In this document: piece after piece, positions 1 through 20,098 of the stretch
How the letters are laid out: each line of letters opens with the position of its first letter
How positions within the stretch are numbered: position 1 is the first letter of the stretch
Assembly: GCA_031554285.1 (NCBI GenBank)
Contig: JAVBVL010000019.1
Span: 9,768 to 73,767 of the forward strand
Length of the DNA stretch: 64,000 nucleotides
Direction of reading: 5' to 3'
From: Bacteroides sp.
GTDB lineage: Bacteria; Bacteroidota; Bacteroidia; Bacteroidales; Bacteroidaceae
Notes under the pieces: model-generated
Told to the model about the DNA's origin: nothing
Seen by the model: the letters and a program-made list of their open reading frames with translations, nothing else
Database searches by the model: none
Program-made: the position numbers and the translations under genes

Positions 1-1079
1 GGAACGAAGGTTTGGTATTCCTTCAGGCACAACTCAATAGCGGCAATCTGTTGGTTGAGTTCCTCCGGAGTGTGGGCTTTGGTTTCCGTTAATACGGCAG
101 TCAGACCTTCACCGGTGGGGTCGTTTACCGATGCCAATGATTTCTTATCAAGCAATTCTGCTCCATGTACCACTAAACTGCCGTCGCTGTTTTGCAACTG
201 CTTCATGGCAACCACTGCCCGGCAGGCTTCCTTGATGTCGCTAAAATAGAGCATGGCACTTGCCTTGCAGGGGTAGTCATATTCGGTTTTCATGGTAACC
301 TCTGAGAGGAATGCCAGTGTTCCTTCCGAACCTACCATCAAGTGGGCAATAATATCGAAGGGGTCAGTAAATTGTACTAAAGGGAGGATGTTGAGTCCGG
401 TTACATTCTTAATCGAGTATTTATGACGGATGCGGTTGGCTAACAATGTGTTGTTTTGTACCTCGTCACGCAAGGCTTCAATCCGTTTCAGCATCTTGCT
501 ATGGGTAAAGGCAAACGCCTTGCGACTCATTTCGTTACCGGTATCCAATATCGTACCATCGGACAGAATAATACGAACAGAAACCAACATCTTGTCGCTG
601 TTGGCATGGGTACCACAGTTCATTCCCGAGGCATTATTCATCACGATTCCACCCACCATGGCCGACTTTACCGAGGCGGGGTCCGGGGCAAACTTGCGTC
701 CAAAAGGTTGCAGAATTTCATTCACCCGTTGCCCGATAAGCCCGGGCTGGAGGGTAATCTGTTCGCGGTCGTCTGAGATGCGGTACTTTTCCCAATGCTT
801 CCCGGCTACAATCAGTATAGAGTCACTAATGGCTTGTCCCGACAAACTGGTTCCCGCTGCGCGGAAGGTTACCGGCAGTTGATAACGGTGAGCAATCATC
901 AGGAGGTTAGCTACCTCCTTCTCACCATCCGAGCGGACTACAATCTGAGGAATCAGACGGTAGAATCCTGCATCTGTACCCCAAGCTAACCGGCGAAGGT
1001 CGTCGGTATAGATTCGCTCTTGCGGAACAAATGAGGCTATCTCCCGCAGAAACGCCACATAGCTTTCTCTCTTATTCAT
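1..1079 (-). CDS. FAD-binding/(Fe-S)-binding oxidoreductase, D-lactate dehydrogenase (Dld-II/GlcD-like); 3' end runs off the window
   Basis: Not in the ORF track. Manual translation from ATG 1079 gives MNKRESYVAFLREIASFVPQERIYTDDLRRLAWGTDAGFYRLIP...TFRAAGTSLSGQ...PDPAS...GGIVMNNASG...GSEGTLAF (FAD_binding_4 motifs), open to the window edge. Start overlaps the upstream stop (TAATG). Confidence 0.85.
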   Translation of the reverse strand, partial: MNKRESYVAFLREIASFVPQERIYTDDLRRLAWGTDAGFYRLIPQIVVRSDGEKEVANLLMIAHRYQLPVTFRAAGTSLSGQAISDSILIVAGKHWEKYRISDDREQITLQPGLIGQRVNEILQPFGRKFAPDPASVKSAMVGGIVMNNASGMNCGTHANSDKMLVSVRIILSDGTILDTGNEMSRKAFAFTHSKMLKRIEALRDEVQNNTLLANRIRHKYSIKNVTGLNILPLVQFTDPFDIIAHLMVGSEGTLAFLSEVTMKTEYDYPCKASAMLYFSDIKEACRAVVAMKQLQNSDGSLVVHGAELLDKKSLASVNDPTGEGLTAVLTETKAHTPEELNQQIAAIELCLKEYQTFV

Positions 1080-2323
1080 TACTTGTACAAATAATATTTC
1101 TTGGACAATTTACGAAAACTGTCCACATCTTTATACCAATACTCGCGAATATCTTCCCAACGGTTACGTTGGCTGAAGCGTTCGCGTATCTCTTTGGAAC
1201 CACTTACTAAATCGAACATCCTGAACCGCCCTTTATCGGCATGGTCAAATACGGCACGGTCCGGATATAGCACGGCTAACTCTTGCATTACCAGGAACTG
1301 AATTTCACTTAAAGCAGCCTTCTGATAATCCATAATATGCACTTGTACGCCTTGCAAGAGTTCTCCTTTCCCAACCGAGTAGAACGGTTTGAGATACATA
1401 GGGCGGAAGATAATTCCCGGCAATTGTAAGTTGTTGAGGCGATTGGCCAGTTCTTCTGCTTTAATCCAGGGTGCAGCAAACATTTGGAACGGAATGGTAT
1501 ATCCTACTCCGATAGATAGATATCCCAATTCGCCCAAAATACCCGATACCGGATAGAAATACGAAGTGTGCGGATGTGGAATGTGTGGCGAAGAAGGAAC
1601 CCATTGCAAACCCGTTTGCGTGTAATCCATCTTGCGTTTCCATCCTTTCATCTTTACTACATGCAGGCTGCAGGTTTTACCCAACATCTGCTCGCCATTG
1701 AGCATCAATGCTAACTCTCCACAAGTGAGGCCGTAAAGGTACGGGATTTTAAACTGACTGACAAATGAAAAAAAGCCATCTTCTACTAAATTTCCTTCAA
1801 TCTTTAGTCCCCCTACCGGATTGGGGCGGTCTAAAACAATAAATTCTTTTCCGTTCTCGGCAGCCGCTTCCATGGCTACTCCCATGGTACTGATGTAAGT
1901 AAAGGAACGGCAGCCAATGTCCTGAATGTCGTACACCAATACGTCAATACCTTCCAGCATCTCCGGGGTAGGTTTACGAGTCTTTCCGTACAGGGAGAAG
2001 ACGGGTAACCCGGTAGCCGGGTCGTTGCCGCTTTCTATCTTATCGCCGGCATGCACATCACCGCGCACACCATGTTCAGGTCCATACAGAGCCACCAGGT
2101 TTACATTGGGAGCTTCGTGCAGGATGTCGATGGTCGACTTCAGTTGATTATCCACTCCGGTGGGATTGGTTATCAGCCCCACGCGTTTTCCTTCCAGACA
2201 CTTGAATTGCTGCTCTTTCAGCACCTCGATACCTGTCTTTATGGTAATTTTCTGTGCTTGCGCCATACCGGCACACAACACAACGCATATCAAACTTACA
2301 ATAAATCTGTTATTCTTTTTCAT
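1079..2323 (-). CDS. namZ: Exo-beta-N-acetylmuramidase NamZ family (DUF1343/GH171), secreted
   Basis: Signal peptide; GLITNPTG, PEHG, YDIQDIGCRSFTY, LDRPNP and PSSPHIP motifs. Confidence 0.9.
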   Translation of the reverse strand: MKKNNRFIVSLICVVLCAGMAQAQKITIKTGIEVLKEQQFKCLEGKRVGLITNPTGVDNQLKSTIDILHEAPNVNLVALYGPEHGVRGDVHAGDKIESGNDPATGLPVFSLYGKTRKPTPEMLEGIDVLVYDIQDIGCRSFTYISTMGVAMEAAAENGKEFIVLDRPNPVGGLKIEGNLVEDGFFSFVSQFKIPYLYGLTCGELALMLNGEQMLGKTCSLHVVKMKGWKRKMDYTQTGLQWVPSSPHIPHPHTSYFYPVSGILGELGYLSIGVGYTIPFQMFAAPWIKAEELANRLNNLQLPGIIFRPMYLKPFYSVGKGELLQGVQVHIMDYQKAALSEIQFLVMQELAVLYPDRAVFDHADKGRFRMFDLVSGSKEIRERFSQRNRWEDIREYWYKDVDSFRKLSKKYYLYK

Positions 2324-3605
2324 GAGCTATTTCCTCCTTCTTTTTACCGTAGTTAGGATCAATCTTGATAAAGGCACATACCGTAATGGTAGCAGCACAG
2401 CACACCATTACCCAAATAAAGAAGTTCTCGTATCCTATTTGTTCTTGCAACCAACCGGCAGCCATACCCGGCAGCATCATACCCAATGCCATGAAAGCAG
2501 TACAGATGGCGTAGTGGGCCGTTTTGTGTTCGCCATCGGCATAATAAATCATGTAGAGCATATAAGCTGTAAATCCGAATCCGTAACCGAATTGCTCGAT
2601 GAATACGCAGATATTGATAATTATCAGACTCTCCGGTTGGGCATATCCCAGGTACACAAAGGTGAGGCAAGTAAGTGAAATGCTCCAAGCCATGGGCCAC
2701 AACCACCTTTGCAAACCACCTTTAGCTGCGCAGATACCGCCAATGATACCACCCAGTGTTAAACCAATGATACCAATGGTTCCGTATACCAATCCTACTT
2801 CGGCTGTGGAAAGGCCCAAACCTCCCTTCTCTATCGGGTCGAGCAGGAATGGATTAATCAATTTAACCAACTGAGCTTCCGGGAAACGGTAGAACAACAT
2901 AAACAGAATGGCAATACCGGCTTGCTTCTTTTTAAAGAAGGTGGCAAAGGTGGCAAAGAATTCCTTGAAAATGTTAGAGGCCGTTACATTCTCTACCGCC
3001 GATTTATCTGAGGCCGGCTTGGGCAGGATGTAAGTGTGATAGAGGAAGAATGCAATGAATAGTCCCGCCAGGATGTAGAAGGTAATACTCCACGCCATAG
3101 ATACCGACATGTTTTTCTCCAATCCACCCGCCAACATTACCAGCAATCCTTGTCCGGCAATGGTAGCTATACGATAAAAAGTACTACGAATACCTACATA
3201 CAATGCTTGTTCACGTACATCGAGTGCCAGCATGTAGAATCCGTCGGCGGCAATGTCGTGTGTGGCCGAACTGAAAGCCACCAACCAAAATACAGCCAGA
3301 GTGTACTGGAAGAACGAATCCATCGGGATGGTAAAGGCAATACCTGCCAACCCGGCACCTACCAATAACTGCATGGTAGTTACCCACCAGCGTTTGGTTT
3401 TTAACAAATCGACAAAGGGGCTCCAGAAAGGCTTGATTACCCAGGGAAGGTACAGCCAGCTGGTATATAATGCAATGTCTGTGTTCGATATGCCCAATCG
3501 TTTGTACATAATCACAGAGATAGTCATAACGGCTACATAGGGTAGCCCTTGTGCAAAATAGAGAGTGGGTATCCAGGCCCAGGGTGATGTTTTCCCGTTT
3601 TTCAT
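2310..3605 (-). CDS. ampG: AmpG-family muropeptide MFS permease
   Basis: LYFAQGLP, PWVIKPFWSPFVD and SATHDIAADG motifs; about 12 hydrophobic segments. Confidence 0.85.
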   Translation of the reverse strand: MKNGKTSPWAWIPTLYFAQGLPYVAVMTISVIMYKRLGISNTDIALYTSWLYLPWVIKPFWSPFVDLLKTKRWWVTTMQLLVGAGLAGIAFTIPMDSFFQYTLAVFWLVAFSSATHDIAADGFYMLALDVREQALYVGIRSTFYRIATIAGQGLLVMLAGGLEKNMSVSMAWSITFYILAGLFIAFFLYHTYILPKPASDKSAVENVTASNIFKEFFATFATFFKKKQAGIAILFMLFYRFPEAQLVKLINPFLLDPIEKGGLGLSTAEVGLVYGTIGIIGLTLGGIIGGICAAKGGLQRWLWPMAWSISLTCLTFVYLGYAQPESLIIINICVFIEQFGYGFGFTAYMLYMIYYADGEHKTAHYAICTAFMALGMMLPGMAAGWLQEQIGYENFFIWVMVCCAATITVCAFIKIDPNYGKKKEEIAHEKE

Positions 3606-3617
3606 GGTATGTATGCT

Positions 3618-4925
3618 TTAATAGAGTTTATCAATGGTTGCTCCAATGTAATAGTGCAACAGAATGTCGTTGTATAAGTAGCCTTGTTCGCCCATGACGG
3701 CAGCACCAATCTGGCACAGTCCTACTCCGTGTCCCCATCCGGCTCCGGTGAGGATAAATTTTCCGGGTATTCCATTTACAACATCTGCTTTGTCTACTAC
3801 AAAGCCTGAACTGTATAGGTGCGAGGTAGATAGAGTGCGACGTATTTCCAACTCTTTTCCGATGGTCATGGTACGCAGGGTACCAACAATCTTTAATTTG
3901 GTTAACCGTCCGGAAGTTCCCCGTGCTACCGGTATCAGGTCGATAATCTGTCCGTAGTCGATACCCGACCGTTGCAGGATTAACTGCGAAAGTTCCTCCT
4001 GTGTGTATTCTACCTTCCAACGATAGAAATGAGTTGTTTCCTGGTCGTAGTTATTAAGCACCTGTCCCAGAATCTTCTTATCCGTGGTGTTACAAAATGC
4101 TTCGGGTGAGGTACGTATCCACCGTTCGGCTTCCGTTTCGATGCGTAAGTCGGGTAGGGTGGTTTCCGTTTTGCTGTCCCGTTGTTTGCAGAGGTAAGGG
4201 TGCGCCTCTTCCTCCCAACAATATTGAAATTCTTCAAAGGCTCCGCCGCAGCATTTGGAGAAGCGGGCATCGCATATCTGTCCGTTGCTCATCAGTACTT
4301 GTCCGCGGGTAGCTTCAATGGCTTGGCGCACAATAGCTGTCGATGCACGGGTGATGCCTTGGTAACGTTGACAATGGTCGTCGGCGCAAACGTCAAAATG
4401 GGTATGATCCTCCCGGTCGTACCAGCGTGTTAGTTCGTCTTCAGTTTGTGTGCAGGTTGTATAAGTTTGTTCGGCTACTTTCTTGTTTTTCTGAATCTGC
4501 GCCAGGAGCCAACTGCGGGAAATAACGGCATGTGCCTGGAGTAATTCAAGGGAAGCGGTAGCGCTCATCTCCGAAGAGATTACACTGGTGAGGTAATCCT
4601 CAATACCCACCACGTTGACAGCGGTAAGTTGTTCTCTCTCTACAATCAGCTTCAGTGCTCCCTGGAAGCGCTGGTCTTCTTTACGTTCCCAATGGAAATT
4701 AATCCCGATGATAACATCCTTTAGCTCGAATGCTCCTGCAACCGGGTCGGCAGGCTCCCACAATAGTTCGTTGTACAGGCTTCCATTCCAAAGAATCTTA
4801 CCTGCCTGGTACGATACTGTTTGCAAACCCTGGTATTCTTTCCCGTCTGCATGGTAGGGAGTCAACAGGACAAACTCAAGTTGCGTTCCCGATAGGATAC
4901 CTACATGTACGTTTGGCTCTTTCAT
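3618..4925 (-). CDS. SpoIID/LytB domain protein (lytic transglycosylase-like)
   Basis: EDYLTSVISSEM, LQAHAVISRS, CADDHCQRY and GAGWGHGVGLCQIGA...ILLHYY motifs. Confidence 0.88.
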   Translation of the reverse strand: MKEPNVHVGILSGTQLEFVLLTPYHADGKEYQGLQTVSYQAGKILWNGSLYNELLWEPADPVAGAFELKDVIIGINFHWERKEDQRFQGALKLIVEREQLTAVNVVGIEDYLTSVISSEMSATASLELLQAHAVISRSWLLAQIQKNKKVAEQTYTTCTQTEDELTRWYDREDHTHFDVCADDHCQRYQGITRASTAIVRQAIEATRGQVLMSNGQICDARFSKCCGGAFEEFQYCWEEEAHPYLCKQRDSKTETTLPDLRIETEAERWIRTSPEAFCNTTDKKILGQVLNNYDQETTHFYRWKVEYTQEELSQLILQRSGIDYGQIIDLIPVARGTSGRLTKLKIVGTLRTMTIGKELEIRRTLSTSHLYSSGFVVDKADVVNGIPGKFILTGAGWGHGVGLCQIGAAVMGEQGYLYNDILLHYYIGATIDKLY

Positions 4926-4928
4926 ATA

Positions 4929-5870
4929 TTATATCTTTACACTATCAATAATGCGCTGTACCAGCTGTCTGAATTCAATGGGGTCTAAGCAAACCTCCTG
5001 TAAGATACCGGCTATATTCCGGGCAGTCAGTTTCTCAAAATCCTCTTCGCGGGGAGTAATAAATACCCCTCCCATATCTACTGATGCCGGACTGATTAAG
5101 ATGTTGGCATCTCCTTCGGCTGTATAGCAAGAGGGGCGGTGTTTGCTGCGCGGAAAAATACAGACAATCCATTTCCCGTTATCGTCTACCCAGGCAATCA
5201 GATTCATCATAGGTTCTTCTTCACCGGGTTTTAGCTCCATAGCGTTATACACCATGTCGAACAATTCCGTAGCATCCCGCTTGTCGCACGCTTCAATCAC
5301 TAATGCAGGGCGGTTGGGATCGTCTAAGTATAACAAGTTGGCGGTATGGTACGTAAACACTTGGGTAGCCTTGTTCTTCCAATCCTGCTCAATGGGCATG
5401 AACCCTTTGTTGCCTGCCTGGAAATGGGCATGGTCGGGAGCCGAAGCACCACAACGCGGACCGTTGTAGAATATCACGTATTCATCGGCAAATGCGGCTA
5501 GGTCGAGCATATCTGCCATCCGGTTTTGTATCCGTTGGTCGGTATGCTGTACTTCCGGTATGGTGAGGTGTTTGGGAAATATCGGAAACGGATTAACCAG
5601 GATGGTGTAATGTCCGCCGAAAGGTATTCCCTTTTGCTCTGCCGGAAGATGTGCGGCACACAGGAAGCATTTACGCTCCCGGATAGACTGGCTGTCTACT
5701 TTCGCTGCCGAAGAGACCATGCGTGCCGGGTTAAACTGTACCTTGTAACGGGTACCGTCTACGTTCAGCTCTTTCACTTTTACTTGTTGCAAGGCGAGGT
5801 AATTGTCGCTTGCCAGTTTCCAGGAACTGAGTTGCTCGTCCAGTAATTGCTGTATGTTTGCTGCTGACAT
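4929..5870 (-). CDS. DUF4922 family protein (HIT-superfamily nucleotidyltransferase/phosphorylase-like)
   Basis: VQFNPAR, CFLC, LVNPFPI and FYNGPRCGASAPDHAHFQ (HxHxQ) motifs. Confidence 0.8.
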   Translation of the reverse strand: MSAANIQQLLDEQLSSWKLASDNYLALQQVKVKELNVDGTRYKVQFNPARMVSSAAKVDSQSIRERKCFLCAAHLPAEQKGIPFGGHYTILVNPFPIFPKHLTIPEVQHTDQRIQNRMADMLDLAAFADEYVIFYNGPRCGASAPDHAHFQAGNKGFMPIEQDWKNKATQVFTYHTANLLYLDDPNRPALVIEACDKRDATELFDMVYNAMELKPGEEEPMMNLIAWVDDNGKWIVCIFPRSKHRPSCYTAEGDANILISPASVDMGGVFITPREEDFEKLTARNIAGILQEVCLDPIEFRQLVQRIIDSVKI

Positions 5871-5875
5871 AGTTG

Positions 5876-7336
5876 TTATTTCTTATTCATGGCTACACGT
5901 GCCTGTAATTCCCAGGTACGGATGCGGTCTTTGTACAGGTTATGTCCGTTCATTTTCACAATGTCCAGTGAAGCATCCGAGTTGTCGTCCCAACGGCGGC
6001 ACAGGTAAACCACCTCATACACACGTCCAATCTGGAAGCGACGCGAGATGTTCAATCCCAAAGCATAGTCTTCACCGTAGCTGGTGTTGGGCACCTTTAC
6101 ATCACGCAATACAGGGGTGTAGAATGCACGGGGAGCACCCAACCCATTAATGCGCAGTGCATTGTTACGTCCGTTTTCAGGAGTCCACTCTTTGTGGTCA
6201 ATGATACCCGGGGCAATCATGTTCATCATGAAGTCGGTCATCATATATGTACCCACCACCATGGCGCAATTCTGTTCGTAGAAGGCGTTCACCATGGTCT
6301 GCAAGGTCTTTTCGTCTTTGTACACATCGTCACTGTCTAACTGTATGGCAAACTTACCGCATTTTTCGTGGTGCACGCCCATGTTCCAGCATCCGCCAAT
6401 ACCCAGGTCGTTACGGTTGGGGATAATATGAATCAACCGTTCATCGGCTGCATACTCGCGGATAGCTTCTGTAGTTCCATCAGTAGAGTGGTTGTCGATG
6501 ATAATCAGGTTGAACTTGAAATTGGTTTTTTGTTTGAGAACCGAGCTGATAGCGTCGCGAATGGTACGAATACGGTTGCGAACGGGAATAATCACCGATG
6601 CTTCATACTCAAAGTTGCCTGCTTCAAAAGCAATCTTCTCAAATTCCGGCGCCAGGTATCCGCCAATCTCTTTCAGGTGTTCGGTACAGGCCTGTTCCAT
6701 TTCTATTTGTACGCCCCGGTTCTTCGGGTCTACGTAATCGAATATCTTTTCGCCGCTCTTGCGGTTGTCATTCTCAATTTCAGAGTACAGATACTCGTTT
6801 ATGTGTACCAATGCTTCTTTTTGCGAGAGTTTCAAACGCAGGTCGTACAGTCCGGCAAACTGATAATTGGCTTTCATGCGGGCGGCTGCCTCTTTCAAAG
6901 CAGATGCTTTAAAGAACAGTACCGAGCCGAAGTTAAAGTCGTCACGAAGGCTGCCAAATTGGTAATCAATCACCGGAGCATTCTTTTGTTCGCCGGCTAT
7001 CACTTGATAATGGTCGGCATATACCATGCCGGCATTAGAGTCTTCAGCCAAGCGTGCCATGCGTTCCAACGCAAAATAGCTCATGCTCAAGGTGGTGTAT
7101 TTAGTGTACAGCAAAGTGTATGTAGCATCTGAGTGTGTGGCAACAGCCTGTATGGCAGCACTGCAATTCAAGGCGGGTACTACAAGCACTTCGCATCCCG
7201 GCAGGGCGGGAACTCCCGGTTGGGTAGCCAATAAATAAATTTGATCTACCAAGCCCGATGATTGCAGGCCATTGATGGTAGCAGTAGCCTGAGCAGCATC
7301 TGCGTAAGGAATGAAGCAATTGATTTTGTTTTTCAT
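5876..7336 (-). CDS. Family 2 glycosyltransferase with an N-terminal degenerate GT-like domain
   Basis: SVIIPVRN, IIIDNHSTDGT, QLDSDD and GEDY motifs in the C-terminal half. Confidence 0.85.
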   Translation of the reverse strand: MKNKINCFIPYADAAQATATINGLQSSGLVDQIYLLATQPGVPALPGCEVLVVPALNCSAAIQAVATHSDATYTLLYTKYTTLSMSYFALERMARLAEDSNAGMVYADHYQVIAGEQKNAPVIDYQFGSLRDDFNFGSVLFFKASALKEAAARMKANYQFAGLYDLRLKLSQKEALVHINEYLYSEIENDNRKSGEKIFDYVDPKNRGVQIEMEQACTEHLKEIGGYLAPEFEKIAFEAGNFEYEASVIIPVRNRIRTIRDAISSVLKQKTNFKFNLIIIDNHSTDGTTEAIREYAADERLIHIIPNRNDLGIGGCWNMGVHHEKCGKFAIQLDSDDVYKDEKTLQTMVNAFYEQNCAMVVGTYMMTDFMMNMIAPGIIDHKEWTPENGRNNALRINGLGAPRAFYTPVLRDVKVPNTSYGEDYALGLNISRRFQIGRVYEVVYLCRRWDDNSDASLDIVKMNGHNLYKDRIRTWELQARVAMNKK

Positions 7337-7342
7337 GACTAT

Positions 7343-9199
7343 TTATTTTTTATTATTTCTTGCAACGAGAAGTCCCACTTCACCGCCCGTAGCGGTAAAC
7401 AATACACTGTATCGACTGAGTGGAACTACTGTACTGATTAATGAATTACCTATTTTATGTTTCCACAGTACATTGCCTGTTTGTGAATCGAGTGCAAAGA
7501 TAAGACCATCCTTGGTACTACCGAATACAATGCCGTCTTTTTCTACTTGCATAGAAGGAGCGTGCTCATATCCGAAGCCTACGTTGGACGCCCAAATCTG
7601 GCGGGGAGTATCTTCAGTAGCGAAACACACAATGCTGTCGTTCATGGTTTTGCTATATACCTGTTTTTTATCGGCCGATAGTCCGATGGTTTCGCGTACG
7701 GTCGATTGTTTGGTACGCCATACGGTAGCTCCCGTTTCCAGGTTAATGGCTGTCAAAGCGCGTTCGGGGTCGGTAATAAATACCTTACCGTTGGCAGCTA
7801 CCGGCCATACGGCGGCAGGTGAGAAGTGCATGCGTGTCAGTCCGCCCGTCCATTTCCATAATTCCTTGCCGGTTTGTTTATCTAAGGCATACAAGGTGTT
7901 ATCCCATGCCCCGAAGATTACCTTGTTACCTTCAATGAGGGGTTTGGTTTCAATGTATCCTTTTACTCCGGTGTAGCTCCATGCTACCTTTCCTGTCTTG
8001 ATGTGGATGGCGCGGAATGTATGGTCGCTGGCACCTACGTAGGCAATGCCTTTTTCGATGGCTACCGCTCCCAATACCGGTTCGGCGGCTTCTACTTTCC
8101 AAAGCATTTTGCCGGTGGCGGCATCCAAGCCGTAGATGTTACGGTCGGCGGAGCCAAATACCACGATTCCATCGGCTACGGTCGGGGTACCTACAATGCG
8201 GTTGCCCGAACGGAATGTCCACGCTTTACTTCCGTCTTTCAAAGCATAGCAACTCAGGAACCCCATATCGTCGCCTACATATACCTTATCTTTATATACG
8301 GCGGGCGAATCGTAAATGCCTACGCCTGTTTGTACCAACCATTGCGGTTTTACCTGCGGATATTGGTTGTTTACGGAGAAATCGGGGTATTTGTCGGTAG
8401 CTCCTTGCGGACCGTAATAGGTCTTTGTGAGTGACAGAGCCGTCCAACGCTGAGGCTCTTTGCCAATCTTCTGTTCGTATACAATGAGTGAGTCGGGGGT
8501 AATGTCATAAATACTGTATCCGCCCACTCCGTCTTTGTCGCGCAGGTTCGAACGGTTCAATATACCCGGTATGCCATCATACGAGTGAGTAATGTTGCGG
8601 TGGTAATGTCCACCCACAAAAGTGCGGATATTGTACGGCCGAACGGCATCTGCCAGGTCGAACCAGTTGTCAATATCACCGTCTAACAAAGGATAGTGTG
8701 TAACCAGTATCACCGGCTTCTCTTTACCGGCTTTGGCCAGCTCCTCTTTCAACCAGGTGATGTCTTGCGGAACCACGTGGCCGTTGGCCATACGCATCAG
8801 CGGGCCCGAGTTAAAGCCGAGGAACAGAAAACCTTTGTGTTCAAATTCAAAGCGCTCACCTCCGTAGATGGCTCCAAAGTCGGTTACTCCGCTCTCGCTC
8901 CATTTGGTTTCGTGGTTACCGGGAATGGCGTAGTATTTTACCTTCAAACGGTCGAGTGCATCTTTGGCTTTTTGAAGCGAGGCACGGTCGCCCTCTTCGG
9001 TAATGTCGCCTGTTACCAGTACAAAGTCAATCCCCGGAGTGGCATTGAGTTGGTTAACCGATGCGTTGAGGTCGTCAATGGCGGTACCGCTGTGGGTAAT
9101 GTGCAAGTCGGTAAGCAAGGCAAAGCGAAAGCGTTCTCCAATCTGTGCGTGGAGGGCTATACATATGCAAGCTATACTGAGTAAAACTATTCTTTTCAT
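7343..9199 (-). CDS. Secreted calcineurin-like metallophosphoesterase fused to a PQQ-like beta-propeller
   Basis: Signal peptide; TDLH, GDIT, GNHE and GGHYH motifs, then repeated ALD..TG...W blades. Confidence 0.85.
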   Translation of the reverse strand: MKRIVLLSIACICIALHAQIGERFRFALLTDLHITHSGTAIDDLNASVNQLNATPGIDFVLVTGDITEEGDRASLQKAKDALDRLKVKYYAIPGNHETKWSESGVTDFGAIYGGERFEFEHKGFLFLGFNSGPLMRMANGHVVPQDITWLKEELAKAGKEKPVILVTHYPLLDGDIDNWFDLADAVRPYNIRTFVGGHYHRNITHSYDGIPGILNRSNLRDKDGVGGYSIYDITPDSLIVYEQKIGKEPQRWTALSLTKTYYGPQGATDKYPDFSVNNQYPQVKPQWLVQTGVGIYDSPAVYKDKVYVGDDMGFLSCYALKDGSKAWTFRSGNRIVGTPTVADGIVVFGSADRNIYGLDAATGKMLWKVEAAEPVLGAVAIEKGIAYVGASDHTFRAIHIKTGKVAWSYTGVKGYIETKPLIEGNKVIFGAWDNTLYALDKQTGKELWKWTGGLTRMHFSPAAVWPVAANGKVFITDPERALTAINLETGATVWRTKQSTVRETIGLSADKKQVYSKTMNDSIVCFATEDTPRQIWASNVGFGYEHAPSMQVEKDGIVFGSTKDGLIFALDSQTGNVLWKHKIGNSLISTVVPLSRYSVLFTATGGEVGLLVARNNKK

Positions 9200-9217: not shown

Positions 9218-12200
9218 TTATTTTTCGTCGAAGAATTGTAAAATGCCTTTCATCAGTGCTTCCCGTTCACAGGCGGTACGAACCGATTCGAAGGGGAATC
9301 CCAGGATGCAGGTTTTGTAGTTTCCACGGTAGGCCACTCCCGCACTCAGGTTGTTTTCCGAGTAACGAATAATGGTAGCCGCTTCCGGAGCGGTGGGTTC
9401 AATGGCATCGGGCGATTCTACGATGTAGCCATCCGGATTCAACTCGCTGAAATAGCTGTAAGTGCCTGTAATGGAGGTAAACGGTGAGGCTACGCTCTTT
9501 ACCTGTCCTGTTTTGGCTGCTTGTCCTACCCGCCATTTGTATTTCAATACGTCGGTGGCAAACTTTCTGTCAGCTTCTTGGCTTGTGGTAAGATGGTTAT
9601 CCCATAAGTCAGAAGCTACATAGGCACCCGATACAAAGAAGTTTCCTCCTGCCTGGCAGTATGCTGTGACAGCCTCTTGCATGGGGGCAGAGAACGTTTT
9701 GTACTCCAACGGATGTATCTTTCCGTGTCCTACCTTTGTCTGGCACTCTTTACCCAGAATAAGGTCTACGTACTTGTACTGGTTCAAAGAAACCTGCTTA
9801 CTCTCAACCGCCTCATCGCTGCACGAAGTAAAGGAGTAACCGGTTTTCAGGATAGCACTTCCGTGTACGGCGGGATAATCAAAGGTGTTTCCGGCAATAA
9901 CCATGGTTTCGTGCGTAGCGTAGCTGTCGCCAAAGCCCGAAGCATCATCGTCCATCCAGGGTACCTTGCGGCGGAACTCTTTCATGCTTCCAATAAAGCT
10001 GATGTCTTCTTTATAAGGAACACCGTAATCCAATTGGTCCAGGAATCCGGCGATGGAATCGGCCTGTGCATCGAAATCGGCGGGTGCGCTGATGCGGTCG
10101 AAACCGTTTACCACCAATACCGTACCTTTACTGTTGAACGCTTTGCCTGCCGAGAGAATTTCGGACGGGAAACTTTCGCCTCCTTTGTTTAGGGCGGTTA
10201 CCTTGAAACTGCATACCACACCTGCCGGAATAACCGTACGGTATTGGGTACCCTTCACTACGCGCCCGTTATCAAATGCTCCTTCACCGATTCGGGTGTA
10301 CACCACATATTGTTCGGTTTTGGCAGTAGGTTCTAACGGGTCTTCAACGGGCTGCCAGGATAGTTCTATTTCATTCTCGCCTACAAACCCCAGACTCATA
10401 TGGTCAACCGGTAAGGGTTGTACTACGTAGTCCATTTTATATTGCGAGCACACAAACTGCAGGATGCCTTTATAAATAGCGCGGCTTACGGTAAAGCGGA
10501 AACGAGGGTCGAGGCCGTAACGCATGTCGGCAAAGTTTTGGTGTGAGAGCAGTTCCAGCAACATGGCAGGTACTTTAGGAACGCGGGCTTCAAAGTACGA
10601 CTGGTTCCACATGCCGCGGCGCGACCACTTGGGTTCGTACAGTGTGCGGATATCCCGTACAATGTTGCTTTGAATTAGGTCGGTAAGGTCGCGTGCGGCA
10701 TAACGGGAAGTGCCGTTGGCATACACCCCATTGTCAACTGCCGTATGGAAGATACCCAGTGTGCCGATGATAGAATCGTTCAAGGTAGTTCCGGCATCAG
10801 TATGGAAAGCTAATGACATATCCATCGGGATGTGCAAACCCTCTTCTGTGGGATTAACCGGTGAACCGCCTGCCAGGTAATTCACCCATTTGCCGCGTGC
10901 TTTATAATCGTCGGTATAATCGTTCTTGCCGTGACTGTCGGAGTAGATGCTATCCGGAACACCCGCCCACTGCATCCAGTAACGGGCGCCTTCGGTAAAG
11001 CGGGGGTAACCGCTTGTTTCGTACGGGTAATCTGCTTGGGGGATAGAACGCTGAACCGAAGCCACGGCATCCGAACTTTTCACATTCTCGGTAGCGCCCT
11101 CTTGGGAGATGCGGCGTGCAATATTGCCGTATCCACCGCCAATTTTCACGGCATCGGCTGTTATTATTCTTCCGGCTTTGTCCGAACGGTTGCTCAGGGT
11201 TACCTTTCCGCCGGCGTTGCATCCGGCTTCAAAAGTAAAGTGACCTAAGTAAATCCAGGTGCCGCCACCCATCTGCTGGTTCACTTTGAATTGTGAAGTA
11301 CCTCCGTTGTGATATACGGTGTACAGAGCATCGTCTGCACTGTTTTCTACCGTTTGGTACGATACATATACGGCATACGAACCTTTTGCCGGGATAGCGG
11401 GTATCCATTCGGCAAGGCTTTCGTTACCTTTCTTAATGGTTTCTATCTGGCGGAAGGTACCTTCCTTGAACGGATTCTCAAAGTCGATGTATTGTGCACG
11501 CAAGTGGGCAAATCCCGGCTTGCTGCCCGTTTGCCAGTTACGGTCGCCCGGTAGCTCGGAGTACACGGAGCGGTTGTTCAGGCAGCCGTCATTGTCAACC
11601 ACCACTTCGGCGCTTTGTGTGTCGCGCTCACGGGGAATCAATACATTGGCGCCCGCGTTCTCCAACATCGGCACTACAAACGGGAGTACATAGCTTTGGG
11701 TGTATAAATCTTCTACGGTTTGGAAGATACGCGCCCGCTGCCACTCCCAACGGGTGAGTTTGGCTTCGTAGTAGAAACCGTGACTTTGCCAAATGGCGAG
11801 GTGGCGGTTCAGTAGTCCGTTGGTGGGGGTGTACGGAACCGACAGGCGGGTAACCAGCGGCTTGTCCACCCGGTTACTGAATGTCTCTGCTTTCTTATCC
11901 TTTTTGCTACGTAATGCCAGTGGGATTAACTCCTCAATGGCATGGCGGTCGGTACGTATCTGCAGTTGGTAGTTGGCCAACTCGGCAGGCAACAACGCCC
12001 GTACCCCTTCATAAATCTGTGCCACATTCTCCTCGCGGAACGGAATGTATCCACAATTGGCATTGGCAAACAGCACTAACTTCTTGCCGTCTACAGCTAC
12101 TGAGTCGATGTTGATACGCCCGATGGCTAAATCTTGCCGGGCAGTAGTTGTCAGGTACTTGCCTATCTCCTGGCGAACTTCGGGAGAAAGGCTTTGCGCC

Positions 12201-12265
12201 GCTGCCGTCCGGGGGAGCAGACAAGCAACGGCTAAAGCTGATAAAAGCGAATAGATAACCTTCAT
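9218..12265 (-). CDS. Large secreted 'xanthan lyase'-type protein: Amidase_3-like catalytic motifs, CBM/golvesin-like insert and FN3 domain
   Basis: Signal peptide; IWQSHG, QTVEDL, AFHTDAG and LLELLSHQN motifs; ADAVK CBM-like end; IELSW...FKVTALNKGGES FN3. Confidence 0.7.
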   Translation of the reverse strand: MKVIYSLLSALAVACLLPRTAAAQSLSPEVRQEIGKYLTTTARQDLAIGRINIDSVAVDGKKLVLFANANCGYIPFREENVAQIYEGVRALLPAELANYQLQIRTDRHAIEELIPLALRSKKDKKAETFSNRVDKPLVTRLSVPYTPTNGLLNRHLAIWQSHGFYYEAKLTRWEWQRARIFQTVEDLYTQSYVLPFVVPMLENAGANVLIPRERDTQSAEVVVDNDGCLNNRSVYSELPGDRNWQTGSKPGFAHLRAQYIDFENPFKEGTFRQIETIKKGNESLAEWIPAIPAKGSYAVYVSYQTVENSADDALYTVYHNGGTSQFKVNQQMGGGTWIYLGHFTFEAGCNAGGKVTLSNRSDKAGRIITADAVKIGGGYGNIARRISQEGATENVKSSDAVASVQRSIPQADYPYETSGYPRFTEGARYWMQWAGVPDSIYSDSHGKNDYTDDYKARGKWVNYLAGGSPVNPTEEGLHIPMDMSLAFHTDAGTTLNDSIIGTLGIFHTAVDNGVYANGTSRYAARDLTDLIQSNIVRDIRTLYEPKWSRRGMWNQSYFEARVPKVPAMLLELLSHQNFADMRYGLDPRFRFTVSRAIYKGILQFVCSQYKMDYVVQPLPVDHMSLGFVGENEIELSWQPVEDPLEPTAKTEQYVVYTRIGEGAFDNGRVVKGTQYRTVIPAGVVCSFKVTALNKGGESFPSEILSAGKAFNSKGTVLVVNGFDRISAPADFDAQADSIAGFLDQLDYGVPYKEDISFIGSMKEFRRKVPWMDDDASGFGDSYATHETMVIAGNTFDYPAVHGSAILKTGYSFTSCSDEAVESKQVSLNQYKYVDLILGKECQTKVGHGKIHPLEYKTFSAPMQEAVTAYCQAGGNFFVSGAYVASDLWDNHLTTSQEADRKFATDVLKYKWRVGQAAKTGQVKSVASPFTSITGTYSYFSELNPDGYIVESPDAIEPTAPEAATIIRYSENNLSAGVAYRGNYKTCILGFPFESVRTACEREALMKGILQFFDEK

Positions 12266-12277
12266 TATTGTGTTAAG

Positions 12278-13729
12278 TTAATTGTTTCTTTTCTTAATCA
12301 GGATGCACAGCCCGATAAACGTAAACAGTGCATTGAAAATAAGTAGTTCATAACTGAACTTGTATCCGTTAAACCAGGCTTCCGAGTTTTTTTGCAGGAT
12401 GAAGCAAAGAATGGGCGAAAGGATGGCTACCAATGGAATGAATCTGTCTTGTACCTTCTTTTTGGTAAAAATACCGAAGGCAAACAATCCCAGGATAGGA
12501 CCGTAGGTGTAACTGGCCAGGATGTATACCGCATCGATTACGCTGGTATTATTGAGCAGGTTGATAACGAATATTACCACGCCCATTACCACTGCCATGC
12601 CTACATGTACCCGCTTGCGGATGCGTGCCAACTCAAACTCGGCACGGTCTTTCGCCCCCAGTATATCTACCGTAAAGGAGGTGGTAAGCGCTGTTAAAGC
12701 CGAACCGGCTGCCGCGTAGGCGGAAGAAATCAGTCCGATGATGAACAAGATACCTACGATAGCCGGGAAGTAACCGCCTGTGGCAATCATGGGGAACAGC
12801 TCGTCACTCTTTGCCGGGTTTTGTATGCCTTGTTTGGCGGTAAACAGGTAAAGTAGCACGCCCAGCATAAGGAACAACAGGATGATGAAGAACTGCGAGA
12901 TACCGCTGGTAATCATATTTTTCTGCGAATCCTTGAAGTTCTTGCAACTCAGGTTGCGTTGCATCATGTCCTGGTCGAGCCCGGTCATGGCAATCATGGT
13001 AAATACCCCTGCCAGGAATTGCTTGAAGAAGTATCGCTTGTCGTTCACATCGTCAAAGAAGAACATGCGCGAGAGTTCGCTGTCGTTAATAGCTGTGAGC
13101 ATACCGCTGAATCCCAGGTTCAGGTCGCCGGCAATGTAGTAGATACATAATACCACCGATACCACCAGGCAGAATGTTTTTAACGAATCGGTCCATATCA
13201 ACGACTTTACGCCACCCCGGTAGGTGTACAACCATACCAACGCTACGGTAGCCGCCACATTCAGGATAAACGGTAGGTGGAGCGGGTCGAAAACCAACAG
13301 TTGCAGGGTAAGGCATACCAGAAACAAACGCACGGCAGCCCCCAACATCTTGGAGATAAAGAAGAACCAGGCACCTGTTTTATACGAAGAGATTCCGAAA
13401 CGGTTTTCCAGGTACTCGTAAATAGATACCAGGTTCATCCGGTAGAACAACGGAATGAGCACAAAGGCAATGATAAACTGTCCCGCAACGAAACCCAGCA
13501 CCATCTGCAGATAAGCAAAGCCGCTGGCACTCACCATGCCCGGAACCGATACAAAGGTAACCCCCGAGATACTGGAACCTATCATGGCAAACGCCACCAC
13601 GTACCAGGACGATTTGCGGTTGCCTACAAAGAAACCTTCGCTGTCGGCCTTGCGCCCGGCAATGTAAGATACGGTGAACAACAGGATGAAATACACCGCA
13701 ATGGTAATCAGTATCGATACAGGACTCAT
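12278..13729 (-). CDS. Sodium:solute symporter (SSS family)
   Basis: FFVGNR, SISGVTFVSVPG, SIYEYLENRFG, GGVKSLIWTD and DQDMMQR motifs; many TM helices. Confidence 0.9.
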   Translation of the reverse strand: MSPVSILITIAVYFILLFTVSYIAGRKADSEGFFVGNRKSSWYVVAFAMIGSSISGVTFVSVPGMVSASGFAYLQMVLGFVAGQFIIAFVLIPLFYRMNLVSIYEYLENRFGISSYKTGAWFFFISKMLGAAVRLFLVCLTLQLLVFDPLHLPFILNVAATVALVWLYTYRGGVKSLIWTDSLKTFCLVVSVVLCIYYIAGDLNLGFSGMLTAINDSELSRMFFFDDVNDKRYFFKQFLAGVFTMIAMTGLDQDMMQRNLSCKNFKDSQKNMITSGISQFFIILLFLMLGVLLYLFTAKQGIQNPAKSDELFPMIATGGYFPAIVGILFIIGLISSAYAAAGSALTALTTSFTVDILGAKDRAEFELARIRKRVHVGMAVVMGVVIFVINLLNNTSVIDAVYILASYTYGPILGLFAFGIFTKKKVQDRFIPLVAILSPILCFILQKNSEAWFNGYKFSYELLIFNALFTFIGLCILIKKRNN

Positions 13730-20072: not shown

Positions 20073-20098
20073 TAGGTCCTAACTATATGAATACGAAT

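What the first reader, a model, noticed from the sequence alone, without database searches (positions are those of the whole stretch)
4929..7336. GT2 plus HxHxQ nucleotidyltransferase-like pair inside a degradative operon: candidate new sugar-nucleotide salvage route
Seen: two adjacent signal-less proteins, a two-domain GT2 (DSDD, GEDY) and DUF4922 with GASAPDHAHFQ. Known: HxHxQ marks the transferase/phosphorylase branch of the HIT superfamily (GalT, Ap4A phosphorylase, GDP-glucose phosphorylase). No AmgK/MurU homologs are in the window. Inference: these 'biosynthetic' folds may feed imported MurNAc/GlcNAc units straight into UDP-sugars. For example, GT2 could run in reverse with UDP or phosphate while DUF4922 interconverts sugar-1-P and NDP-sugar, giving a non-homologous analog of the AmgK-MurU shortcut.
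Basis: inference. Interest (0 to 1): 0.7.

Follow-up and report, generated by a model that had tools for sequence, protein, structure and literature searches.

The report
Cytoplasmic GT2–DUF4922–SpoIID cell-wall salvage module
Two enzymes of unknown function, together with a third that has no export signal, form a conserved and sometimes fused set inside the cell; it sits beside the transporter that imports bacterial cell-wall fragments and probably replaces the two textbook enzymes that normally break those fragments down.

Summary
Window 5876-7336 (-) encodes a soluble two-domain GT2 with intact DSDD and YGEDY motifs. Window 4929-5870 (-) encodes a DUF4922/GDPGP1_C protein with an invariant HxHxQ; its model best matches yeast Ap4A phosphorylase, then ADP-glucose phosphorylase and GalT. 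Both genes lie in the Bacteroidales MurNAc/peptidoglycan-scavenging operon known from Tannerella forsythia (Tanf_08345-08385), where their orthologs are called "two putative glycosyltransferases, function unknown".

New here:
- The pair is really a trio with the signal-less SpoIID/LytB gene next door. DUF4922-SpoIID, GT2-DUF4922 and one GT2-DUF4922-SpoIID fusion exist.
- In 301 genomes of the phylum, all 49 with DUF4922 have the GT2, and 51 of 52 GT2 genomes have AmpG.
- All 47 AmpG genomes without the GT2 keep both AnmK and a NagZ-like GH3. Of the 51 with the GT2, 29 lack AnmK, 18 lack NagZ-like and 17 lack both.

Best reading: a cytoplasmic module that processes AmpG-imported GlcNAc-(anh)MurNAc in place of NagZ and AnmK, possibly by reverse glycosyl transfer to an NDP followed by phosphorolysis. 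The chemistry is inferred, not shown. The AmgK-MurU analogy is the weaker part.

The parts
5876..7336 (-). Soluble two-domain GT2 (486 aa), ortholog of T. forsythia 'Gtf' Tanf_08350
   Evidence: identified by gene order and the literature
6737..7336 (-). GT2 N-terminal GT-A-like / nucleotidyltransferase-like domain (aa 1-~200). It has no DxD and no Pfam family. Invariant G128, R131, D132, G137 (GSLRDDFxFG) and R167.
   Evidence: (ISPD 4cvh Z 12.3, IspDF 1w57 Z 11.9 over model 1-196)
5879..6604 (-). GT2 C-terminal catalytic GT-A domain (aa 245-486), with DSDD (6326-6337) and YGEDY (6065-6076)
   Evidence: heparosan synthase, WrtF, SpsA, TarS/TarP, Z 20-22
4929..5870 (-). DUF4922 + GDPGP1_C protein (313 aa), a GalT-branch HIT nucleotidyl phosphorylase/transferase-like enzyme, ortholog of Tanf_08355
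5418..5450 (-). GASAPDHAHFQ motif. H147, H149 and Q151 are invariant. C68-x-x-C71 and H109 are also invariant; a GalT-like Zn site is inferred from this.
3618..4925 (-). SpoIID/LytB-like protein with no signal peptide or TM segment (435 aa); third member of the module, ortholog of Tanf_08360
2310..3605 (-). AmpG-family muropeptide MFS permease (431 aa)
   Evidence: function of the T. forsythia ortholog from PMC5388701 and PMC7670621
1079..2323 (-). NamZ (GH171) exo-muramidase with signal peptide, NamZ1-type position next to ampG
   Evidence: bioRxiv 10.1101/2021.12.02.470905
3..1079 (-). 5' part of a 946-aa FAD/Fe-S D-lactate dehydrogenase-like gene. The operon continues beyond the window with MurT-like, MurK-like, MurQ and a beta-lactamase/GDSL gene (L104).
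7343..9199 (-). Exported metallophosphoesterase + PQQ-like beta-propeller protein (618 aa)
9218..12265 (-). Exported 1015-aa protein with Golvesin_C and a weak Amidase_3 match (the 'xanthan lyase' of the T. forsythia papers)
12278..13729 (-). Sodium:solute symporter (483 aa)
13748..14914 (-). Second NamZ (GH171) with signal peptide; first gene of the operon

Best explanation
The GT2 and the DUF4922 protein are two parts of a three-enzyme cytoplasmic module. The third part is the signal-less SpoIID/LytB-like protein encoded immediately downstream. The module works on the disaccharides that AmpG imports, GlcNAc-MurNAc and GlcNAc-1,6-anhydroMurNAc, and does the job that NagZ (hydrolysis of the GlcNAc-MurNAc bond) and AnmK (ATP-dependent opening of the anhydro ring) do in other bacteria. 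The module-level function rests on comparative evidence. The individual steps below are inferred. Proposed steps: (1) The SpoIID-like enzyme, which keeps its catalytic-type Glu region, opens or transfers the 1,6-anhydro end to give a reducing or glycosidic MurNAc. (2) The inverting GT2 runs backwards and moves the beta-linked GlcNAc onto a nucleoside diphosphate, releasing MurNAc. (3) The HIT-type DUF4922 enzyme phosphorolyses the NDP-GlcNAc through a nucleotidyl-His149 intermediate, giving GlcNAc-1-phosphate and regenerating the NDP. The net reaction is phosphorolysis of the disaccharide without ATP. MurNAc then goes to MurK, MurQ and D-lactate dehydrogenase, all encoded in the same operon. 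My odds are about 0.45 for the module-level statement and about 0.2 for the exact three steps.
For: Anatomy: both proteins are soluble and lack signal peptides. The GT2 keeps DxD and the ED base motif, invariant across 25 homologs. DUF4922 keeps HxHxQ, CxxC and His residues, invariant across 23 homologs. Its confident model (pLDDT 91.4) matches Ap4A phosphorylase Apa2 (E 6e-11, TM 0.6), ADP-glucose phosphorylase and GalT, and its C-terminal half is Pfam GDPGP1_C. Coupling: all 49 DUF4922 genomes among 301 carry the GT2, and the two are adjacent in about 44 of them. The SpoIID-like protein lacks a signal peptide in the window and in the homologs whose N-terminus was recovered among the 91 loci; these start at a conserved MKEPKVxVGI. 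Fusions: nearly all of the 120 best long DUF4922 proteins are DUF4922-SpoIID fusions. Pfam confirms DUF4922-SpoIID, GT2-DUF4922 and one 1281-aa GT2-DUF4922-SpoIID protein, and about 20 of the best 150 representative clusters are fused. Context: AmpG, SpoIID and/or NamZ lie beside the pair in 13 of 20 distant loci and in 78-80 of 80 close loci. There is also a compact NamZ-SSF-GT2-DUF4922::SpoIID-AmpG-MurK operon. Phyletic pattern (counted): 47/47 AmpG genomes without the GT2 have both AnmK and a NagZ-like GH3. Of 51 AmpG genomes with the GT2, 29 lack AnmK, 18 lack NagZ-like and 17 lack both, spread over six families. 18 of the 20 genomes with no NagZ-like hit carry the GT2. In GT2-less genomes a small NagZ lies 5-10 kb from ampG. 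In this genome no AnmK was found, and the two best NagZ-like GH3 proteins are about 1010 aa with signal peptides. Literature: T. forsythia grows on GlcNAc-anhMurNAc through AmpG, although 'no AnmK ortholog ... is predicted' and the route 'remains to be explored' (PMC7670621). The operon is one transcript (PMC5388701).
Against: No enzyme activity was or could be tested. Related genomes are not independent, so the naive Fisher values overstate the pattern. It could reflect lineage history in Bacteroidales-like families. 22 of 51 module genomes keep AnmK and 33 keep a NagZ-like GH3, so the module is not simply exclusive with them. I did not sort NagZ-like hits into cytoplasmic and periplasmic forms across all genomes. 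I know of no GT2 enzyme reported as a physiological reverse catalyst. With UDP as acceptor, the high cellular UDP-GlcNAc/UDP ratio would oppose reversal, so the model needs a 'private' nucleotide or tight coupling (inference). Known SpoIID enzymes make anhydro ends rather than open them. Five of 49 genomes have the two genes apart, and two loci show unrelated neighbours. The window's genome is only 80% complete.
Confidence: 0.4

Rival explanations
1. Anabolic salvage. The module turns imported MurNAc units directly into MurNAc-1-phosphate or UDP-MurNAc. For example, the SpoIID-like enzyme transfers the anhydro-MurNAc onto an acceptor, the GT2 in reverse makes NDP-alpha-MurNAc, and DUF4922 interconverts NDP-MurNAc and MurNAc-1-P or swaps nucleotides as GalT does. 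This would bypass AmgK and MurU.
For: The same structural and synteny evidence applies as for the best explanation. The GT2 has two GT-A-like domains like the alternating-sugar polymerase K4CP, which could in principle address both linkages of the glycan. T. forsythia is a MurNAc auxotroph and would profit (PMC7670621). No MurU-type NTP_transferase above threshold was found in this 80%-complete genome.
Against: This genome has MurA, so it does not need MurNAc salvage. The operon carries MurK, MurQ and D-lactate dehydrogenase, which are catabolic. Published work says T. forsythia already has AmgK and MurU (PMC7670621). Going from an anhydro or glycosidic bond to a UDP-sugar is uphill by roughly 14 kJ/mol (inference). 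The phyletic pattern involves NagZ and AnmK; AmgK and MurU were not tested across genomes.
Confidence: 0.15
2. Ordinary forward glycosyl transfer. DUF4922 supplies or edits an NDP-sugar, and the GT2 glycosylates some cytoplasmic acceptor, such as a protein- or S-layer-glycan precursor or another glycoconjugate. The genes would share the operon only through co-regulation by GppX, as the early T. forsythia literature suggested.
For: The GT2 has a complete catalytic set for forward transfer. PMC5388701 calls the cluster glycosylation-related, citing Niwa et al. 2011. Leloir GT2 enzymes normally work forwards (general knowledge).
Against: Synteny with AmpG, SpoIID and NamZ is kept across several families. 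Fusion with a SpoIID-like domain is hard to explain by co-regulation alone. The GT2 has no membrane segment or lipid-carrier-type features. 51 of 52 GT2 genomes have AmpG.
Confidence: 0.1
3. The module remodels imported muropeptides rather than splitting them. For example, it rebuilds or elongates glycan fragments in the cytoplasm: the GT2 adds GlcNAc, the SpoIID-like enzyme trims to anhydro ends, and DUF4922 balances the nucleotide-sugar pool. The product would be a signalling or storage form.
For: This uses the known directions of both a GT2 and a SpoIID lytic transglycosylase. The trio is cytoplasmic and fused.
Against: No regulator that senses muropeptides lies in the operon. A cycle of synthesis and cleavage would be futile. 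It does not explain why NagZ and AnmK are dispensable only where the module exists.
Confidence: 0.08

Closest known systems
Tannerella forsythia Tanf_08350 / Tanf_08355 / Tanf_08360 ('Gtf', 'Gtf', 'LytB') in the ampG-murTKQ operon
   Same: Same gene order and neighbours: exported 'xanthan lyase'-type protein, GT2, DUF4922, SpoIID/LytB, AmpG, NamZ1, MurT, MurK, MurQ. The operon is co-transcribed (PMC5388701; bioRxiv 10.1101/2021.12.02.470905). A Tannerella sp. locus (L074) has homologs at 74% (GT2) and 56% (DUF4922) identity.
   Different: The papers call both genes putative glycosyltransferases of unknown function and LytB a putative lytic transglycosylase. Here the second 'Gtf' is a HIT/GalT-branch enzyme and LytB is cytoplasmic. 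The window's operon also has a D-lactate dehydrogenase, a second NamZ and an SSF symporter.
NagZ + AnmK route of anhydromuropeptide recycling (E. coli, Pseudomonas)
   Same: Same substrate class (AmpG cargo) and same cell compartment. Complementary distribution: these genes are always present with AmpG where the module is missing.
   Different: No homology. NagZ is a GH3 hydrolase and AnmK an ATP-dependent kinase, whereas the module has a GT-A transferase, a HIT phosphorylase/transferase and a SpoIID-fold enzyme. The chemistry would be phosphorolytic and ATP-free (inferred).
AmgK-MurU MurNAc salvage shortcut
   Same: It would also link scavenged MurNAc/GlcNAc to sugar-1-phosphates and NDP-sugars.
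   Different: AmgK is an APH-fold anomeric kinase and MurU an NTP-dependent uridylyltransferase; the pair has no kinase. T. forsythia has both systems according to the literature, so the pair is unlikely to be a simple substitute.
Sucrose synthase + UDP-glucose pyrophosphorylase (plant sucrose cleavage)
   Same: A precedent for catabolism by a Leloir glycosyltransferase working in reverse, followed by conversion of the NDP-sugar to sugar-1-phosphate with conservation of bond energy (established biochemistry, from my own knowledge).
   Different: Sucrose synthase is GT4 (GT-B fold) and sucrose has an unusually energy-rich bond. Here the enzyme is a GT2 (GT-A fold) and the bond an ordinary beta-1,4 link, and the second step would use phosphate rather than pyrophosphate.
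GDP-hexose phosphorylases GDPGP1 / VTC2 (GGP), yeast Ap4A phosphorylase Apa2, ADP-glucose phosphorylase, GalT
   Same: Same Pfam domains (DUF4922, GDPGP1_C), HxHxQ motif, two-half HIT fold.
   Different: Only 12-18% identity to the solved structures. Substrate and nucleotide are unknown. The eukaryotic enzymes are not coupled to a GT2 or a SpoIID domain.
E. coli K4 chondroitin polymerase K4CP and Pasteurella heparosan/hyaluronan synthases
   Same: Soluble proteins with two GT-A domains in tandem (Z 24.4, 401 residues aligned).
   Different: In the window's protein the N-terminal domain has lost the DxD motif, so only one canonical active site remains. Identity is 14-16%, and the protein is much smaller (486 versus about 690 aa).
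SpoIID of Bacillus / Clostridioides (PDB 4rwr, 5i1t, 5txu)
   Same: SpoIID/LytB domain (TIGR02669, E 4e-49). The SEM region with the catalytic-type Glu and the C-terminal GHGVG motif align.
   Different: Known SpoIID proteins are membrane-anchored and act outside the cytoplasm on peptide-free glycan. This one has no signal or anchor and is often fused to a cytoplasmic HIT enzyme.

Membership tests
GT2 inverting glycosyltransferases (GT-A fold) | GT-A Rossmann-like fold | tested here: met
   Model residues 238-486 align to heparosan synthase, WrtF, SpsA and TarS/TarP at Z 20-22, rmsd 2.6-3.5 Å. Pfam PF00535, E 2e-24.
GT2 inverting glycosyltransferases (GT-A fold) | DxD metal/nucleotide-binding motif and acidic catalytic base | tested here: met
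   QLDSDD and YGEDY are invariant in 25 homologs. Their roles are assigned by analogy, not measured.
GT2 inverting glycosyltransferases (GT-A fold) | Transfer from an NDP-sugar to an acceptor (activity and direction) | not testable with these tools
   Needs an enzyme assay.
HIT superfamily, GalT / Apa / GDPGP1 branch (nucleotidyl transferases and phosphorylases) | HxHxQ motif with the nucleophilic second His | tested here: met
   H147, H149 and Q151 are invariant in 23 homologs and align to the DHKHLQ of Apa2.
HIT superfamily, GalT / Apa / GDPGP1 branch (nucleotidyl transferases and phosphorylases) | Two fused HIT-like half-barrels in one chain | tested here: met
   The full-length model matches Apa2 over about 310 columns (TM 0.6, E 6e-11), then ADP-glucose phosphorylase and GalT.
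HIT superfamily, GalT / Apa / GDPGP1 branch (nucleotidyl transferases and phosphorylases) | GalT-type structural Zn site (Cys-x-x-Cys + two His) | tested here: inconclusive
   C68, C71, H109 and H147 are invariant, but I did not check their geometry in the model.
GDP-hexose phosphorylase family (GDPGP1/VTC2) | Pfam DUF4922 plus GDPGP1_C domains | tested here: met
   PF16269 E 8e-66. PF26216 (GDPGP1_C) is precomputed for this protein and its relatives.
GDP-hexose phosphorylase family (GDPGP1/VTC2) | Phosphorolysis of a GDP-hexose | not testable with these tools
   The nucleotide and the sugar are unknown.
SpoIID/LytB lytic transglycosylases | SpoIID domain with catalytic Glu region | tested here: met
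   PF08486 E 5e-24 and TIGR02669 E 4e-49. ISSEMSATAS aligns with VASEMNASFE of 4rwr.
SpoIID/LytB lytic transglycosylases | Extracytoplasmic location (signal peptide or membrane anchor) | tested here: not met
   No signal or TM segment. The N-terminus is conserved from the first Met in the homologs of the 91 loci whose N-terminus was recovered. The domain is fused behind cytoplasmic DUF4922 in many proteins.
AmgK-MurU salvage pathway | APH-fold anomeric sugar kinase and NTP_transferase-fold uridylyltransferase | tested here: not met
   Neither fold occurs in the pair. APH and NTP_transferase hits in the genome lie on other contigs.
Known disaccharide phosphorylases (GH65, GH94, GH112, GH130; GT4, GT35, GT108) | Single enzyme of one of these families that splits a glycoside with phosphate | tested here: not met
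   The proteins are GT2 and HIT. Only a 'works like' claim is made, for the pair as a whole, and it is inferred.

The most novel reading that the evidence does not exclude
An ATP-independent, three-enzyme phosphorolytic pathway for anhydromuropeptide disaccharides. A cytoplasmic homolog of a lytic transglycosylase opens or transfers the 1,6-anhydro-MurNAc end. A Leloir GT2 works physiologically in reverse to load GlcNAc (or MurNAc) onto a nucleoside diphosphate. A GDPGP1-like HIT enzyme releases the sugar-1-phosphate and recycles the nucleotide. Together they replace NagZ and AnmK in Bacteroidales, and would explain how the MurNAc auxotroph T. forsythia lives on GlcNAc-anhMurNAc.
Probability: 0.2. 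Interest if true: 0.85.

Novelty: new variant of a known kind. Interest (0 to 1): 0.62.

Why it matters
How Bacteroidales handle AmpG-imported cell-wall disaccharides in the cytoplasm is an acknowledged gap. This group includes abundant gut Bacteroides and the periodontal pathogen T. forsythia, which cannot make MurNAc. T. forsythia grows on GlcNAc-anhMurNAc without a predicted AnmK (PMC7670621). Three genes in the middle of its scavenging operon have stayed 'function unknown' since 2017. The evidence here comes from fusions, strict co-occurrence, cytoplasmic location, and the finding that NagZ and AnmK are lost only where the module is present. It turns that gap into a direct test with three named candidates. 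If the proposed chemistry holds, it would be the first physiological reverse-acting GT2. It would also be the first bacterial role for the GDPGP1/VTC2 family and a new, intracellular use of the SpoIID fold. The pathway matters for cross-feeding on cell-wall debris in gut and oral communities.

Tried and rejected
(1) Complex prediction of GT2 with DUF4922 gave no verdict (score 0.01). It is not used either way.
(2) Pfam and NCBIfam gave no family for the GT2 N-terminal domain. The ESM Atlas feature search gave only 'hypothetical protein / GT2' clusters.
(3) I expected a clean either/or distribution between the module and AnmK. It is one-sided only: 22 of 51 module genomes keep AnmK.
(4) MurQ does not discriminate: 45/52 module genomes against 215/301 overall.
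(5) Literature searches for DUF4922, Tanf_08350/08355, a GlcNAc-MurNAc phosphorylase, Bacteroides NamZ/AmpG and anhMurNAc + Tannerella found no characterisation of these genes. The DUF4922 papers concern plant GGP and animal GDPGP1 only.
(6) An APH-family kinase on contig C78 lies next to a GH109-like gene and a topoisomerase, not next to a MurU. It could not be called AmgK.
(7) I considered the N-terminal GT2 domain as a sugar-phosphate nucleotidyltransferase because of its ISPD/IspD matches. I rejected this as unsupported, because the Gly-rich GxGxR loop of those enzymes is not visible in the sequence.
(8) The kinship labels of the genome search ('same order / class / phylum') did not fit the Bacteroides-like best hits. 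I used only the anonymous family counts.
Full report
**1. What is there**

The finding lies inside a long minus-strand operon. Reading 5' to 3' on the minus strand, Pfam and NCBIfam give the following genes:
- NamZ/GH171 (13748-14914).
- A sodium:solute symporter (12278-13729).
- A 1015-aa exported protein with Golvesin_C and a weak Amidase_3 match (9218-12265).
- An exported metallophosphoesterase/PQQ-propeller protein (7343-9199).
- The GT2 (5876-7336).
- The DUF4922 protein (4929-5870).
- A SpoIID/LytB protein (3618-4925).
- An AmpG-family permease (2310-3605).
- A second NamZ (1079-2323).
- An FAD-binding dehydrogenase cut by the window edge.

I fetched the contig upstream of the window (L104). 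The operon continues there with the rest of a 946-aa FAD/Fe-S D-lactate dehydrogenase-like protein, a MurT-like membrane protein (HGSNAT_cat/DUF5009) and a MurK-like BcrAD_BadFG kinase. MurQ (TIGR00274, 309 bits) and a beta-lactamase/GDSL protein follow.

This is the Tanf_08345-08385 operon of Tannerella forsythia. That operon is one transcript (PMC5388701). In it Tanf_08350 and Tanf_08355 are described as "two putative glycosyltransferases" whose "functions ... are unknown" (bioRxiv 10.1101/2021.12.02.470905). The best outside matches of the window's DUF4922 protein are Bacteroides species at about 70% identity.

**2.

The translations carry QLDSDD, YGEDY and GASAPDHAHFQ. Neither protein has a signal peptide or a hydrophobic segment.

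In an alignment of 25 GT2 homologs reaching down to 29% identity, the DSDD and YGEDY residues are invariant. So are HxEWT and the NGRNNALRINGLGAPR block. In 23 DUF4922 homologs reaching down to 35% identity, H147, H149, Q151, C68, C71, H101 and H109 are invariant.

Both AlphaFold models are confident (pLDDT 90.9 and 91.4).

The DUF4922 model matches these structures over its whole length:
- Yeast Ap4A phosphorylase Apa2 (E 6e-11, TM 0.6).
- The DUF4931 protein 4qvu.
- Arabidopsis ADP-glucose phosphorylase.
- GalT.

By sequence it also hits Apa2. Its C-terminal half is Pfam GDPGP1_C. DUF4922 is the domain of plant GDP-L-galactose phosphorylase and animal GDPGP1. So the second "Gtf" of the literature is not a glycosyltransferase. 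It is a GalT-branch HIT enzyme.

The GT2 model has two GT-A-like domains. Its best whole-chain match is the two-domain chondroitin polymerase K4CP (Z 24.4). The C-terminal domain matches many GT2 enzymes at Z 20-22. The N-terminal domain (1-196) matches best the nucleotidyltransferase-type ISPD and IspDF at Z about 12. The N-terminal domain has no Pfam family and no DxD, but it has its own invariant polar residues (GSLRDDFxFG, R167).

**3. The pair is really a trio**

The SpoIID/LytB gene starts 3 nt after the DUF4922 stop. Its product has no signal peptide or membrane segment. In the homologs from the 91 related loci whose N-terminus was recovered, the protein begins at a conserved MKEPKVxVGI with nothing hydrophobic before it. 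The region holding the catalytic-type Glu (ISSEMSATAS) aligns with solved SpoIID.

A search for longer DUF4922 proteins returned almost only DUF4922-SpoIID fusions of 740-800 aa among the best 120, plus a few GT2-DUF4922 fusions. Pfam scans confirmed both types, and one 1281-aa GT2-DUF4922-SpoIID triple fusion. In the exhaustive representative search (1740 clusters at E ≤ 0.001), about 20 of the best 150 clusters are fused forms. One fusion sits in a compact operon: NamZ, SSF, GT2, DUF4922::SpoIID, AmpG, MurK-like.

**4. Co-occurrence and context**

I searched 301 genomes sampled from the phylum.
- 49 have a DUF4922 homolog and 52 a full-length two-domain GT2 homolog.
- All 49 DUF4922 genomes have the GT2, and the genes are neighbours in about 44.
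- Two of the three GT2-only genomes have SpoIID next to the GT2.
- 51 of the 52 GT2 genomes have an AmpG homolog, against 98 of 301 overall.

I then looked at the neighbours of the pair.
- In 20 loci around distant homologs (37-61% identity), AmpG, SpoIID and/or NamZ are adjacent in 13.
- In the rest, neighbours include RlpA-like DPBB lytic transglycosylases, a NagB/PIG-L fusion and a D-lactate dehydrogenase. Two loci have unrelated housekeeping genes.
- In 80 close loci the whole operon is kept.

**5. The pattern that suggests a function**

I scanned the same 301 genomes for AnmK (PF03702) and for a NagZ-like GH3 (NF003740, E ≤ 1e-30).

| AmpG genomes | n | have AnmK | have NagZ-like | have both | have neither |
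|---|---|---|---|---|---|
| without the GT2 | 47 | 47 | 47 | 47 | 0 |
| with the GT2 | 51 | 22 | 33 | 21 | 17 |

The 17 genomes with neither enzyme are spread over six families. Of the 20 genomes with no NagZ-like hit at all, 18 carry the GT2.

In GT2-less genomes a small NagZ (356-374-aa frame) lies 5-10 kb from ampG. That is the place the GT2-DUF4922-SpoIID genes occupy elsewhere.

In the window's own genome (80% complete) no AnmK was found. The two best NagZ-like proteins are about 1010 aa and have signal peptides.

The naive Fisher p-values (2.6e-11 and 1.6e-6) overstate the case, because related genomes are not independent. The direction is still clear. AmpG is found without NagZ or AnmK only where the module exists.

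This meets an open question in the literature. T. forsythia uses GlcNAc-anhMurNAc through AmpG, yet "no AnmK ortholog ... is predicted" and the route "remains to be explored" (PMC7670621).

**6. Mechanism**

Shown by the evidence above:
- Three soluble proteins with conserved catalytic-type residues.
- Obligate association and fusion of the three.
- Linkage to AmpG.
- One-sided complementarity with NagZ and AnmK.

Inferred:
- The SpoIID-like enzyme deals with the 1,6-anhydro end.
- The inverting GT2 works in reverse, transferring beta-linked GlcNAc to an NDP and freeing MurNAc.
- The HIT enzyme phosphorolyses the NDP-sugar to GlcNAc-1-P through a nucleotidyl-His149 intermediate and returns the NDP.

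The net reaction resembles an ordinary disaccharide phosphorylase and saves ATP, which would suit anaerobes. MurNAc then feeds MurK, MurQ and D-lactate dehydrogenase, all encoded in the operon.

There is a thermodynamic caveat, which is my own estimate. With UDP as acceptor, the cellular UDP-GlcNAc/UDP ratio would oppose reversal. The scheme works better with a nucleotide whose GlcNAc conjugate is not a normal pool metabolite. GDP is one candidate, as in GDPGP1/VTC2.

The known precedent for catabolism by a reversed Leloir transferase is sucrose synthase with UDP-glucose pyrophosphorylase. I know of no GT2 example.

Rival readings are given with their odds in the Rival explanations section:
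- An anabolic route to MurNAc-1-P or UDP-MurNAc.
- Ordinary forward glycosylation that is merely co-regulated with the operon.
- Cytoplasmic remodelling of the fragments.

**7. Comparison and novelty**

That the two genes sit in this operon is already published. Their function is not, and I found no paper that characterises them.

What is new here:
- The second "Gtf" is reassigned to the HIT/GDPGP1 family.
- The three proteins are recognised as a cytoplasmic GT2-DUF4922-SpoIID unit, including natural fusions.
- The phyletic evidence suggests that the unit stands in for NagZ and AnmK.

I rate it a new variant of a known kind (peptidoglycan-fragment recycling), with unproven and possibly new enzymology.

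The degradative context, the HIT assignment and the idea of reverse transfer plus phosphorolysis remain the best guess. The AmgK-MurU analogy is the weaker part, and the third partner was missing from this finding, although the scan noted the signal-less SpoIID separately.

**8. What led nowhere**

The complex prediction gave no verdict. The Atlas and family searches did not name the N-terminal GT2 domain. MurQ distribution does not discriminate.

Noticed in passing
window 3618-4925 (-): The SpoIID/LytB homolog has no signal peptide or anchor. The N-terminus is conserved from its first Met in the homologs from 91 related loci whose N-terminus was recovered. In many metagenomic proteins the domain is fused behind DUF4922. 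A cytoplasmic SpoIID-fold enzyme has, to my knowledge, not been described.
   Followed up: yes
L104 (G000:C101:1-10900), just outside the window start: The operon continues beyond the window: D-lactate dehydrogenase-like (946 aa, FAD + Fe-S + CCG), MurT-like HGSNAT_cat/DUF5009 membrane protein, MurK-like kinase, MurQ, then a beta-lactamase + GDSL esterase fusion (597 aa) that could be a PG O-acetyl esterase or peptidase.
   Followed up: partly
window 15543-16391 (+) and 16725-21781 (+): A second BcrAD_BadFG (MurK/GlcNAc-kinase-like) gene is transcribed divergently from the operon. A SusC/SusD pair and an OMP beta-barrel gene follow it. This may be the outer-membrane import arm for cell-wall fragments.
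   Followed up: no
Genomes G299, G041, G173, G231, G141, G165, G277, G097 and others: In many genomes the AmpG match is split into two stretches (query 1-167 and 167-425) within one open frame of 600-640 aa. These AmpG homologs therefore carry an insert of roughly 190 residues in the central loop. The window's own AmpG (431 aa) does not.
   Followed up: no
L116 (G000:C31) 1223-4267 (-) and 4269-7292 (-): Two tandem GH3 genes of about 1010 aa, both with signal peptides, are the only NagZ-like genes found in this genome. No small cytoplasmic NagZ was seen (genome 80% complete).
   Followed up: partly
L095 11338-13329 (-), beside a GT2 homolog in a genome without DUF4922: A 663-aa fusion of a glucosamine-6-P isomerase/deaminase-like domain with a PIG-L (GlcNAc deacetylase-type) domain lies next to the GT2. 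This is another link of the GT2 to amino-sugar catabolism.
   Followed up: no
control genomes: Pfam DUF4922 also matches in Synechococcus elongatus and Lactococcus lactis. The context of those homologs was not examined; it could show what the family does outside Bacteroidota.
   Followed up: no
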